Below, piece by piece: positions 1,568 to 3,775 of a stretch of 11,943 nucleotides of DNA. Source of the DNA: a virus; UHGV virus genome UHGV-0862314. The stretch is one strand, 5' to 3'. The notes under the pieces are model-generated. The model ran no database searches. It was not told where the DNA came from and worked only from the letters and a program-made list of their open reading frames with translations. Within the stretch, counting starts at the first letter, position 1, and every line of letters begins with the position of its first letter. The position numbers were made by a program, and so were the translations under genes.

Positions 1568-2630
1568 AGTATCCAACAGTCTGAACTGCCCCTGACCCAG
1601 ATGAAGATGATTGAAGTTCCATGGTGTAATAACCATTAAGTGGCTCACCTTCCCAATCAAGGTTAATGCGTAATACATGGCCATATTTGGTTGCATTTGA
1701 CTGGGCGATAAACCCTCCAGGCTTATCTATATCTCTCTGTGGCATCCCAGAATATACCTGATTTGCAGTATATGCCTTATCAACAGCAGGAGCGCCAATA
1801 GAGGCGGTAATTTTAGGCCACGTTCCGGAGCTGTGCAGAACATCTACAGCATACCCGGTAAGCCCGGTTGATGTTCTCCTGATCAAACATTCAATATACC
1901 CACTCCCATGAGATCCGCCAATCGACTTGATAATCAGTTTTGCAGTACCGCAATCCCATGGATTTAAAGTCTGATCCCAACATTCAGCCTTTAGGCCGCT
2001 AGGCATAGGAAAATCCACGCTGGTTAACACTGCCTCACCTGGCCATACTCCTCCCACAACTATTGGACTCGGTATCCTGACACTCAATGTTTCTAAATAT
2101 CCTCTTCCCCATCCATTATTTGTTTGTCTGGCAAGGTGCTCGTAAATTGGCCTTATTGTCAAAGCCTGAATAAACGCTGGCTTGGATGCTGACGCATCTG
2201 CTGCGTTATAAATACTGATAGTTTTCCATCCCCTACCAATCAGCGTACCAATACGCTTTTGCAAGGCATCAGAGTGATTATTAGATCCACGATTTCGTGC
2301 TACAGTAACAGTGCTCTGAATTGCGTTATAGTTTGTTTGCACAAAACTATTTTGCTCGGCGAAAGCATAGTATGAAACCCCTATAGAGGGAGGGACCTCC
2401 TGTGGTTCAGAGAAGCAAAATGACAAATTAGAGTCATCCAGCCAGCTACCAACAACATCAACTTCTGCTGCCTCTGCATCAAGATAGAAACTGTATGACG
2501 TTCTAACATATTTTCCAGCATCAAACCCACCAATGATGCCTTGAAGCGTATATGTCTCGTAACCAAATCCCATTGTTACATTGTCAAAAGCATCAAAAAA
2601 ACCATCTGATCGCTCTGTTTGTATGGCCAT
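1566..2630 (-). CDS. 354-aa hypothetical protein directly downstream of and overlapping the tailspike ORF; likely the distal receptor-binding part of the tailspike or a second tail-fiber protein
   Basis: ORF track. Gly/Ser/Thr/Tyr-rich composition with no motif I recognise. It overlaps the tailspike ORF by 55 nt in another frame, and neither ATG 2630 nor ATG 2573 has a clear Shine-Dalgarno. Confidence 0.6.
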
Positions 2631-3775
2631 ACCGTTATTTCTGTAGATACTGGTCTATAAAACGGAAGCATTCCTCCGGCCATCATCATTGAACCAATTG
2701 CTTCAGCTATTCGTTGATATCCGACAGAGTTGAAGTGAATTGGATCTGATGCGATAGAACCATATGGGATATTGTATGGTATTTCATTTGCTTCGATATA
2801 TGCACAACCATATACATGAGCTAAATTTCTGATTTCCTGCCCCCAAATTTGGAACTGTTGAATATTACCATGCTGCTCATTACCACCTGCAACTGGCTGA
2901 AGAATAATAACCCCCATCCCCCAATCAATGAATCTACGAATGAACTTCTCCATATACGTTAAATACACGTCTATCGTGGTTGATGTAGAGTCATTTATCG
3001 CATACATAATAATTGCAACATCACAATTAGGATTATCCTGCCATGCTAAATATTCAAATCCTTGTTGTGCTGTCTGCCCGGATACTGCTCTAGTGATACT
3101 TGTTACATTCCCACCGGTACAGATAGAAAGGTATCTTGCGAGCCTTTCTGGATAGGTTACATTAGCACGACGCGTTAACCCTGTTCCGTTTGCATCTGTT
3201 GAGTTAGGATCCCAACCAAAAGTCTCACTATCTCCCTGACAAAGGATCGATAATCCAGACTTTTTACGAAGATTGAAGTGAGCCTTGGTAAGAGCCTGAA
3301 TATTTCTGTTTCTATAATCAGCGCTATCTGATGCCAAAGTAGCGTTGCCAAGATTTGTAATGTGCTCTTGAACAGTCTTCCCATCATCAGTTCCGATTAA
3401 TAAAGATCCTCCTGATCCAGACAGTTCCTGTCGCAGTTGATCTGGATCATATTTAATTACATTAGGGTAATAAAATTGCAAACCACCAACAGCATCATAC
3501 ACCGCCATCGAATGGCCTTTCACAGTAACAAACTTGGCAATCTGTCCGTTATATACAGGGTAACCAGCAGCGTTAATGATGATTGGTTGCGAAACAGGAA
3601 CGTGAGAACCATCCTCATTATCCACATAAACCTGAATCTGGTTTTCAGGATTTACAGGGTCAGTGTCAATTTTACCGATATAAATTTTGCCATTGGCAAC
3701 CGCTTTAAAAGAACGCGCCATAGTGAAAAGTTGCGAAGGCATCGATACGATCACATTGGCTGTAATGTCTGTCAT
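2576..3775 (-). CDS. Tailspike protein: P22 gp9-like N-terminal head-binding domain fused to an SGNH/GDSL hydrolase (esterase) domain
   Basis: N-terminus [59 protein letters not shown] closely matches the recalled P22 tailspike N-terminus ([58 protein letters not shown]). Downstream SGNH blocks are GDSET (codons at 3221..3235), AIND, and DPIH (about 2735..2746). GGAG ribosome-binding site at 3786..3789 with good spacing. Confidence 0.85.

What the first reader, a model, noticed from the sequence alone, without database searches (positions are those of the whole stretch)
2573..2660. Tailspike ORF and downstream 354-aa ORF overlap by 55 nt in a -1 relationship; possible single roughly 740-aa tailspike
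The tailspike frame ends with a junk-like hydrophobic tail ([17 protein letters not shown]) at 2576. The second ORF has no recognisable ribosome-binding site at either candidate ATG (2630 or 2573), and its frame is open from 2654. A single-base insertion, or a -1 slip, between 2654 and 2631 would join the esterase domain to the 354-aa domain. That would give a tailspike of about the size of P22 gp9 (667 aa). A genuine two-gene arrangement, with a second fibre docking on the first, is the alternative.
Basis: partly seen in the sequence, partly recalled or inferred. Interest (0 to 1): 0.5.

Follow-up and report, generated by a model that had tools for sequence, protein, structure and literature searches.

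The report
Frameshift-split prophage esterase tailspike gene
The two overlapping reading frames are the two halves of one ordinary 736-residue phage tailspike gene that has lost a single T, either by a very recent inactivating mutation or by a sequencing slip, and they are not a two-gene system.

Summary
On the minus strand, a 399-aa ORF (3775..2576) and a 354-aa ORF (2630..1566) overlap by 55 nt, with the second in the -1 frame.

Near-identical E. coli prophages (99.1% DNA identity) carry one 736-aa CDS. The window simply lacks one T between positions 2604 and 2603 (CAGATTGG becomes CAGATGG).

- Among the members read from the 74-member 90%-identity protein cluster, all except the window's own pair and one partial sequence are 736 aa. 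The split pair occurs on one public contig only.
- More distant homologues (724-912 aa) carry the ORF2 region as their C-terminal ~340 residues. These include solved esterase tailspikes of Shigella phages Moo19 and B2.
- ORF2 has no ribosome-binding site, and its first 9 residues have no homologue.
- There is no frameshift-stimulating RNA structure.

The protein is a P22-type head-binding domain, followed by an SGNH esterase, followed by a beta-rich C-terminal domain. It is probably an O-antigen deacetylase.

I cannot tell a real mutation (about 0.55) from an assembly or sequencing indel (about 0.35) without reads. The window also carries a second single-base frameshift and a fold-back at its end. 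Interest is low.

The parts
2576..3775 (-). 5' part of the tailspike gene, called as a 399-aa ORF. It holds the P22-type head-binding domain (aa 1-113) and a complete SGNH/GDSL esterase domain (aa ~178-360). The catalytic blocks are GDS 181-183, G233, N261 and D344-x-x-H347. Residues 1-390 are native and residues 391-399 (MVFLMLLTM) are out-of-frame read-through.
   Evidence: Pfam Head_binding E 3.8e-64 and Lipase_GDSL_2 E 2.7e-11; motif positions; alignment to the intact 736-aa CDS
2603..2604 (-). Site of the single missing T. Intact alleles read CAGATTGGTTTTTTTG and the window reads CAGAT-GGTTTTTTTG. Codon 391 (ATT, Ile) becomes ATG and the frame shifts.
   Evidence: Pairwise DNA alignment with L001; coordinates computed. 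It is the only indel in 2.5 kb against L001, L003 and L005.
2594..2601 (-). T7 run (2601..2595) plus G2594. Its length is the same in intact alleles. In the shifted ORF1 frame, 2600..2594 reads T_TTT_TTG, a formal -1 slippery heptamer two codons after the lesion. A -1 slip here would restore the native frame (SDQMVFFDAF instead of SDQIGFFDAF).
   Evidence: Sequence. There is no stable structure downstream: z = -0.22 against shuffles.
1566..2630 (-). 3' part of the tailspike gene, called as a 354-aa ORF. Residues 10-354 are native residues 392-736, the beta-rich C-terminal domain of Moo19 gp82 / B2 gp48-type esterase tailspikes. Residues 1-9 (MAIQTERSD) are an out-of-frame reading of the WPYKQSDQ region.
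   Evidence: PDB phmmer alignments are contiguous over query 97-723. Hits among 1.84 billion representatives mostly start at ORF2 residue 7-10 and lie at the C-terminus of 724-912-aa proteins. tblastn against phages.
1545..1564 (.). GC-rich hairpin with T-runs on both strands, directly after the tailspike stop codon. It is a bidirectional terminator-like site between the tailspike and the acyltransferase, which is convergent in related loci.
   Evidence: Terminator scan; sequence

Best explanation
The two ORFs are one gene. It is the tailspike of a P22-like (Lederbergvirus-type) prophage of E. coli, 736 aa when intact. It is built from a P22-type head-binding domain, an SGNH esterase domain and a ~345-aa beta-rich C-terminal domain.

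By homology it is a trimeric receptor-destroying spike that removes O-acetyl groups from the host surface polysaccharide rather than cutting it. This is inferred from Moo19 gp82 and B2 gp48, which have measured esterase activity, and from G7C gp63.1.

In this window one T of a TT pair is missing at 2604|2603. Translation therefore leaves the native frame at codon 391 and stops nine codons later.

I take the deletion to be a real and very recent mutation in a prophage that shows other damage. If so:

- The cell would make a 399-aa head-binding-plus-esterase stub without the C-terminal domain.
- The 354-aa ORF would be essentially untranslated, because it has no RBS.
- The prophage would be tailspike-defective.

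What is shown: the one-gene architecture, the exact lesion, the lack of an RBS, and the lack of conservation of the split.

What is inferred: deacetylase specificity, trimer formation, loss of function of the stub, and that the deletion is biological rather than technical.

The confidence of 0.55 applies to the whole statement, including 'real mutation'. The one-gene, single-T-deletion part alone I hold at about 0.97.
For: One gene:
- A 99.1%-identical locus has a single 2211-nt CDS, WP_375080248.1. It carries one extra T at the junction.
- In the 74-member 90% cluster, 12 of the 15 listed members are 736 aa. The other three are a 696-aa partial and the window's own two halves.
- The 399-aa and 354-aa products occur on one contig only, CYGL01000464.1, among 153 billion gene positions.
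- Solved structures 9D84 (B2 gp48), 9LNA and 9D80 (Moo19) align in one stretch over residues 97-726. The segment [14 protein letters not shown] is conserved.
- 20 of 28 representative homologues are 724-912 aa with the ORF2 region at the C-terminus.
- All 20 phage records with a tblastn hit place it under one annotated feature. In the two records checked, that feature is a long single tail-fibre or tailspike ORF of 832 and 1086 aa.
- ORF2 lacks a Shine-Dalgarno sequence and a promoter.

Function:
- Pfam matches and SGNH blocks.
- Esterase activity and dependence on O-antigen acetylation are reported for Moo19 and B2 (PMC11654681) and for G7C (PMC10743462).

Real rather than technical:
- The deletion is present both in the window and in the non-identical public contig CYGL01000464.1.
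- The same metagenome assembly also holds a contig with the intact allele, CYGL01000886.1. A site-specific systematic error is therefore unlikely.
- No other gene on the 16-kb public contig is broken.
- The prophage carries an IS1414 insertion.
- Related tailspike copies elsewhere are also decayed. L012 has an in-frame TAG ten codons upstream, and L009 is a 5'-deleted remnant.
Against: Several points argue against a real mutation.

- The split is a singleton.
- The ORF2 part is 100% nucleotide-identical to an intact allele (OGEB01000856.1). From codon 27 onward only 2-3 codons differ from intact alleles. There is therefore no trace of decay after the frameshift, which is exactly what a technical indel would look like.
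- The source is a metagenome assembly.
- The window itself differs from its sister contig by another single-base indel, an extra A at 5662 that splits the 922-aa ejection-protein gene. It also ends in a 127-nt perfect fold-back. Its sequence quality is therefore questionable.
- Both indels sit 2 nt from a 6-7-nt homopolymer of the same base, a pattern seen with flow-based or signal-based sequencing errors (my own knowledge, not tested).
- No reads were available.
Confidence: 0.55

Rival explanations
1. The gene is a single 736-aa tailspike and is intact in the organism. The missing T is a sequencing or assembly indel.
For: - The split occurs on a single contig out of all public assemblies searched.
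- There are no further differences in the 1035-nt ORF2 part from an intact allele.
- The record is a metagenome assembly.
- The window carries a second single-base indel that is absent from the otherwise identical sister contig, and a 127-nt terminal fold-back typical of a graph-assembly artefact.
- Both indels lie next to homopolymers of the same base.
Against: - The same deletion is present in two non-identical assemblies, the window and CYGL01000464.1.
- The intact allele was assembled correctly elsewhere in the same data set.
- No other frameshift is seen in the 16-kb public contig.
- The lost base is in a TT pair, not in the long T7 run where errors would be expected.
Confidence: 0.35
2. 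The deletion is real, but it is partly bypassed. Ribosomal -1 slippage on T_TTT_TTG (2600..2594), or RNA-polymerase slippage on the T7 run two codons downstream, restores the frame in a fraction of products. This yields some full-length spike (IG changed to MV at residues 391-392), enough for a few functional trimers.
For: - A formal X_XXY_YYZ heptamer lies in the shifted frame immediately after the lesion and before the stop at 2578..2576.
- The rescued product would be 736 aa with only two substitutions (derived).
- Homopolymer slippage is an established phenomenon (general knowledge).
Against: - There is no stimulatory RNA structure downstream (z = -0.22).
- The T7 run exists in intact alleles merely because it encodes Gly-Phe-Phe. 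In those alleles a -1 slip would hit TGA at once, so the run was not selected for frameshifting.
- UUG in the A site re-pairs poorly after a -1 shift, and seven T is short for efficient transcriptional slippage (general knowledge).
- The arrangement is not conserved.
Confidence: 0.07
3. This is a genuine two-gene arrangement. A 399-aa head-binding esterase and a separately translated 354-aa distal protein dock together, as in two-protein spike complexes.
For: - Two-protein tailspike complexes do exist in this family (B2 gp49 and gp48; PMC11654681).
- ORF2 has an in-frame ATG at 2630.
Against: - In B2 the division lies upstream of the esterase domain, not between the esterase and the C-terminal domain. 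B2 gp48 aligns across this junction in one chain.
- There is no RBS at either ATG.
- ORF2 residues 1-9 and ORF1 residues 391-399 have no homologues.
- No relative keeps the split.
- The short homologues found are fragments that read through the junction in one frame.
Confidence: 0.02

Closest known systems
Intact allele of the same gene in E. coli prophages (RefSeq WP_375080248.1, WP_134317375.1; 736 aa, annotated 'SGNH/GDSL hydrolase family protein' or 'phage tailspike protein')
   Same: The DNA is 99.1% identical. The repaired protein is 98.5-99.6% identical (3-11 substitutions). The neighbours are the same: an acyltransferase-3 gene downstream, then integrase IntS at a tRNA-Arg next to yfdC.
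   Different: The window lacks one T at 2604|2603, so it reads as 399 aa plus 354 aa. The first 26 codons carry a cluster of mostly synonymous differences, which marks a mosaic boundary in the head-binding domain.
Esterase tailspikes of Shigella podophages Moo19 (gp82, PDB 9D80/9D81, 1086 aa) and B2 (gp48, PDB 9D84, 777 aa), and the T7-like tail fibre 9LNA (832 aa)
   Same: The SGNH domain plus the C-terminal ~340-aa domain lie in one chain. The match is E 1.8e-95 to 4.2e-83 over residues ~97-726, including the junction segment. The published proteins are homotrimers with measured esterase activity, and infection depends on O-antigen acetylation (PMC11654681).
   Different: The N-terminal virion-attachment module differs. 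Here it is a P22-type head-binding domain. In those phages it is an N4-like or T7-like adaptor. Identity is only about 35-45% overall and about 27% in the C-terminal domain. No P22-like phage isolate in the phage collection carries this module.
Coliphage G7C tailspike gp63.1 (PDB 4QNL), an O-antigen deacetylase
   Same: It shares the working principle: an SGNH esterase tailspike that deacetylates rather than depolymerises the O-polysaccharide. According to PMC11654681 it has the same overall topology as Moo19 and B2. Its function is summarised in PMC10743462.
   Different: No sequence similarity is detectable here, even with a profile (4QNL is absent). The relation therefore rests on the published fold comparison only.
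P22 gp9 and Sf6 gp14 tailspikes
   Same: The N-terminal head-binding domain is shared (PF09008, E 3.8e-64; PDB 7SG7, 8TVR and 1LKT match residues 1-118). So are the genome position after the ejection-protein genes and the Arc/Mnt region.
   Different: The receptor-processing part is an SGNH esterase plus a beta-rich domain, not a right-handed beta-helix endorhamnosidase. There is no similarity beyond residue ~118.

Membership tests
P22-like tailspike (head-binding N-terminal domain, PF09008) | N-terminal ~110-residue head-binding domain that matches the family profile over its full length | tested here: met
   Head_binding E 3.8e-64, profile positions 1-113 of 113. PDB matches to P22 and Sf6 N-termini.
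P22-like tailspike (head-binding N-terminal domain, PF09008) | Position in a P22-type late operon, after gp10, gp26, gp14, gp7, gp20 and gp16-type genes | tested here: met
   Gene order and Pfam families on the sister contig and in L001.
SGNH/GDSL hydrolase | Conserved blocks I (GDS), II (G), III (N) and V (DxxH) carrying the catalytic Ser, Asp and His and the oxyanion-hole residues | tested here: met
   GDS 181-183, G233, AIND-N261 and D344-P-I-H347 all lie in ORF1, upstream of the frameshift. Lipase_GDSL_2 scores 44.7 bits against a cut-off of 32.9.
SGNH/GDSL hydrolase | Esterase activity | not testable with these tools
   Activity has been measured only for the homologues Moo19 gp82 and B2 gp48/49 (PMC11654681).
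Moo19 gp82 / B2 gp48-type esterase tailspike | SGNH domain and the ~340-aa C-terminal domain encoded in one polypeptide | tested here: not met
   As the window stands, the two parts are in different frames. The feature is met after restoring one T and is met in every relative examined. The window copy is therefore a disrupted member.
Moo19 gp82 / B2 gp48-type esterase tailspike | Significant end-to-end sequence similarity to the solved members | tested here: met
   E 1.8e-95, 1.1e-87 and 4.2e-83 over residues ~97-726.
Moo19 gp82 / B2 gp48-type esterase tailspike | Homotrimeric spike fold | tested here: inconclusive
   The AlphaFold2 monomer model from an 8-sequence alignment had mean pLDDT 45.9 and was not usable. 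Oligomeric state was not modelled.
G7C gp63.1 deacetylase tailspike | Detectable sequence homology to gp63.1 (PDB 4QNL) | tested here: not met
   4QNL is absent from the phmmer search and from the profile search up to E = 1. The relation is only through the published structural comparison.
Programmed -1 ribosomal frameshift | Slippery X_XXY_YYZ heptamer in the upstream frame within the overlap | tested here: met
   T_TTT_TTG at 2600..2594 in the ORF1 frame.
Programmed -1 ribosomal frameshift | Stimulatory hairpin or pseudoknot a few nucleotides downstream | tested here: not met
   The MFE of 2610..2500 is -19.7 kcal/mol, against -19.1 +/- 2.8 for shuffles (z = -0.22).
Programmed -1 ribosomal frameshift | Two-frame arrangement conserved in relatives | tested here: not met
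   Relatives have one continuous frame.
Two-protein tailspike complex (adaptor plus distal protein) | Second gene with its own translation start signals, kept as a separate gene in relatives | tested here: not met
   No Shine-Dalgarno match. No relative has a separate ORF2.

The most novel reading that the evidence does not exclude
The single-T deletion is real, and the T7 run two codons downstream acts as a built-in suppressor. Low-level -1 ribosomal or transcriptional slippage would restore the frame, and the prophage would still make a few full-length esterase spikes (IG changed to MV at residues 391-392). This would be a natural case of a frameshift mutation masked by an adjacent slippery run. 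A related curiosity: in intact alleles the same run is followed by TGA in the -1 frame. Slippage there would release a 394-aa head-binding-plus-esterase product.
Probability: 0.06. Interest if true: 0.35.

Novelty: already known. Interest (0 to 1): 0.12.

Why it matters
There are two practical lessons.

1. **Annotation.** The 399-aa and 354-aa entries in public protein collections are two halves of one tailspike. They should be flagged as a frameshifted gene and not treated as separate families. The 354-aa 'no-Pfam' ORF is the C-terminal domain of a structurally solved esterase-tailspike family.

2. **Modular exchange.** An esterase (deacetylase) receptor module known from N4-like and T7-like virulent podophages is also used by temperate P22-like prophages of E. 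coli. There it sits next to an O-antigen-type acyltransferase. No cultured P22-like phage in the searched collection has this module, so an intact prophage such as the one in strain 23CRST047 would be the one to study.

The frameshift itself carries no new biology.

Tried and rejected
- **Structure prediction.** I modelled the intact 736-aa protein from an 8-sequence alignment. Mean pLDDT was 45.9, too poor for a fold search, so I made no structural claim from it.
- **Word-indexed protein searches.** Searches with ORF2 and with the SGNH part returned only 2 and 3 hits. These turned out to be remnants or pseudogenes, not a census. The exhaustive HMMER search served that purpose instead.
- **Genome and viral contig scans.** An exact-pattern scan of the junction found nothing in genome contigs or viral contigs.
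- **The window's exact source.** I looked it up through its unique 439-aa ORF, which is not on record. The window is a variant of CYGL01000464.1, not that record itself.
- **Programmed frameshift.** Rejected because there is no downstream structure and no conservation.
- **Internal promoter or terminator between the halves.** Promoter-like matches were fewer than the shuffled expectation and terminator-like matches within about one standard deviation of it.
- **Homology to G7C gp63.1 by sequence.** Not detectable.
- **Phase variation at the T7 run.** Rejected, because the run has the same length in the broken and intact alleles.
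Full report
**1. Observation**

All the genes concerned lie on the minus strand.

- A 399-aa ORF runs 3775..2576 and a 354-aa ORF runs 2630..1566.
- They overlap by 55 nt (2630..2576). The second ORF's codons are displaced by -1 relative to the first.
- The second frame is closed by a TAG at 2657..2655 and is open from 2654.
- Neither candidate ATG (2630, 2573) has a ribosome-binding site. Predicted pairing with the 16S rRNA 3' end is -2.3 and +0.6 kcal/mol. The other gene starts of the window give -4.7 to -8.4.
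- No promoter-like excess lies between the halves.

**2. What the two ORFs encode**

- ORF1 has a full-length P22-type head-binding domain (PF09008, E 3.8e-64, residues 1-113). It also has a GDSL/SGNH hydrolase domain (PF13472, residues 181-355).
- All four SGNH blocks are present: GDS 181-183, G233, N261 and D344xxH347.
- ORF2 has no Pfam match.
- The surrounding genes are the late operon of a P22-like prophage. They are gp10, tail needle, gp14 (DUF2824), gp7, gp20, a 922-aa SLT plus gp16-type ejection protein, an Arc/Mnt gene and the tailspike. An acyltransferase-3 gene and an integrase follow.

**3. The junction in relatives**

A megablast against 5,426 complete E. coli genomes found two genomes, strains 23CRST047 and 23CRST049, with 99.1% identity over the whole region. 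In these the region is annotated as one 2211-nt CDS, WP_375080248.1, of 736 aa.

The pairwise alignment shows one difference at the junction. The relatives read CAGATTGGTTTTTTTG and the window reads CAGAT-GGTTTTTTTG.

- The missing T lies between window positions 2604 and 2603.
- The neighbouring T7 run (2601..2595) has the same length in both.
- This is the only indel in 2.5 kb.
- Putting the T back gives a 736-aa protein that is 98.5-99.6% identical to twelve named E. coli 'phage tailspike' proteins.

It follows that only the last nine residues of ORF1 (MVFLMLLTM) and the first nine of ORF2 (MAIQTERSD) are out-of-frame products.

**4. How general the single-chain form is**

- The window's two products and the 736-aa protein fall in one 90%-identity cluster of 74 members. 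Of the 15 members listed, 12 are 736 aa. The other three are a 696-aa partial and the window's own pair.
- The exact 399-aa and 354-aa sequences are on record on a single contig, CYGL01000464.1 of GCA_001292545.1.
- An exhaustive HMMER search of 1.84 billion representatives with ORF2 found 28 proteins. Twenty are 724-912 aa with the match in their last ~340 residues. Most alignments begin at ORF2 residue 7-10, which is where the native frame begins.
- The short hits examined (P0016, P0025) are fragments called from the conserved M-(M/G)-(A/G)-G-G motif. They read through the junction in one frame.
- tblastn against 50,697 phage records found 20 records, T7-like Kayfunavirus and relatives and N4-like Schitoviridae. 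In each the match lies under one annotated feature. In the two records checked that feature is a long single tail-fibre or tailspike ORF: GW1 at 832 aa and Moo19 at 1086 aa.
- Three solved structures align in one uninterrupted stretch across the junction with E 1.8e-95 to 4.2e-83. They are 9D84 (B2 gp48), 9LNA and 9D80/81 (Moo19). The segment around the lesion...MAGG.LP.YRP...EIT.W....D.IG..DA..N..., is among the conserved parts.

That condition is not found anywhere.

**5. Function of the intact protein**

- Moo19 gp82 and the B2 gp48/gp49 complex are homotrimeric spikes with measured esterase activity on 4-nitrophenyl acetate. Infection by both phages depends on O-antigen modification, including O-acetylation (PMC11654681).
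- The authors describe their topology as like that of G7C gp63.1 (PDB 4QNL). That protein deacetylates the O-polysaccharide without cutting it, and its activity is essential for infection (PMC10743462, citing Prokhorov et al. 2017).
- By homology, the intact prophage protein is a P22-type spike whose receptor-processing part is such a deacetylase. This is an inference, since no activity can be tested here.
- Sequence similarity to 4QNL itself is not detectable even with a profile. I therefore file the protein with the Moo19/B2 type, and only by analogy with gp63.1.

**6. What the lesion does**

As written, translation leaves the native frame at codon 391 and stops at 2578..2576. The product keeps the head-binding and esterase domains and loses the whole C-terminal domain.

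ORF2 has no start signals, and no relative expresses it separately.

A formal slippery heptamer, T_TTT_TTG (2600..2594), lies in the shifted frame two codons after the lesion. A -1 slip there would restore the frame with only IG changed to MV. Three points argue against a programmed event:

- The downstream RNA is no more structured than shuffled sequence (z = -0.22).
- The run is present in intact alleles simply because it encodes Gly-Phe-Phe.
- The arrangement is not conserved.

At most there could be low-level accidental bypass.

**7. Real mutation or technical indel?**

This cannot be settled without reads.

*For a technical indel:*
- The split is a singleton.
- The ORF2 part is 100% nucleotide-identical to an intact allele (OGEB01000856.1). 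From codon 27 onward only 2-3 codons differ from intact alleles, so there is no decay after the event.
- The record belongs to a metagenome assembly.
- The window is not identical to the public contig. It has an extra A at 5662 that splits the 922-aa ejection-protein gene, which is intact in the sister contig and in E. coli genomes. It extends 208 nt past that contig's end. It also ends in a fold-back.
- Both indels sit 2 nt from a 6-7-nt homopolymer of the same base.

*For a real mutation:*
- The deletion is shared by the window and the sister contig, which are different assemblies.
- The same assembly also contains the intact allele in another phage background, CYGL01000886.1. The site is therefore not systematically miscalled.
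- No other gene of the 16-kb public contig is broken.
- The prophage carries an IS1414 insertion.
- Related copies elsewhere are clearly decayed. One has an in-frame TAG ten codons upstream (L012), and one is a 5'-deleted remnant next to surE-pcm-nlpD-rpoS (L009).

I put a real mutation at about 0.55, an artefact at about 0.35, functional bypass at about 0.07 and a true two-gene system at about 0.02.

**8. Comparison with what is known, and verdict**

The intact gene is already in RefSeq and is annotated as a tailspike or SGNH hydrolase. Its family has solved structures and a measured activity. The window holds a broken copy, or a mis-sequenced one.

The only mildly notable point is modular. 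An esterase spike module known from virulent N4-like and T7-like podophages is joined here to a P22 head-binding domain in temperate E. coli prophages. It is adjacent to an acyltransferase-3 gene, and it has no counterpart among cultured P22-like phages in the collection searched.

Noticed in passing
window 5662 (ORFs 5639..6958 and 4189..5490, minus strand): There is a second single-base frameshift. An extra A (GGCC becomes GGACC, 2 nt after an A6 run) splits a 922-aa SLT plus P22-gp16-type ejection-protein gene into 439-aa and 433-aa ORFs. The gene is intact in the otherwise identical contig CYGL01000464.1 and in 99%-identical E. coli genomes. The 439-aa product is not on record anywhere.
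   Followed up: yes
window 1..127 and 1322..1448; junction near 1322-1330: A perfect 127-nt inverted repeat lies at the window's end. Window 1..1330 equals the acyltransferase region of the sister contig in inverted orientation, joined through a 72-90-nt fragment of an IS1414 (IS256-like) end at about 1241..1330. This looks like a fold-back or misjoin of a graph assembly at an IS boundary. The 127-nt arm length is suggestive of a k-mer overlap. An IS-mediated inversion is not excluded.
   Followed up: partly
window 1..1061 (minus strand, runs off the window): An acyltransferase-3 (Oac-like) gene is open for 353 of 384 codons. In L001, L002, L005 and the remnant L009 it lies directly next to this esterase tailspike. 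It is 99.7-100% identical to the window's copy in L001, L002 and L005. A prophage therefore pairs an O-acetyl-removing spike with a presumptive O-acetylating conversion gene. The chemical relation between the two is unknown.
   Followed up: partly
window 5789..5854: A perfect 33-nt tandem duplication lies inside the ejection-protein gene and encodes [11 protein letters not shown] twice. Relatives have 911 or 922 aa, consistent with copy-number variation of this unit.
   Followed up: partly
L003 (CYGL01000886.1) 6137..8391: The same metagenome assembly holds a second contig with the intact 736-aa allele. Similarity to the window starts 45 nt before the ATG and ends at the stop codon (TAG instead of TAA). 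The same spike is therefore carried in a different phage background in the same sample.
   Followed up: partly
L012 3600..3842 (Logan SRR14597286) and L009 478..1599 (Logan SRR31756178): Two independently decayed copies of related tailspikes were found. One is an 83%-identical allele with an in-frame TAG replacing Glu ten codons before the window's lesion, in a truncated prophage. The other is a 5'-deleted remnant (373 aa called) kept together with the acyltransferase next to surE-pcm-nlpD-rpoS.
   Followed up: partly
intact alleles, e.g. L001 7210..7240 (window equivalent 2601..2592): In intact alleles the T7 run is read GGT TTT TTT GAT. A -1 slip on T_TTT_TTT would meet TGA immediately and release a 394-aa head-binding-plus-esterase product. 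There is no evidence that this is used. The run is absent from distant homologues.
   Followed up: no
window 3750..3775 (codons 1-26 of the tailspike): Eleven of the 14 codon differences from the 99%-identical alleles fall in the first 26 codons, and ten of those eleven are synonymous. This marks a recombination boundary inside the head-binding domain.
   Followed up: no
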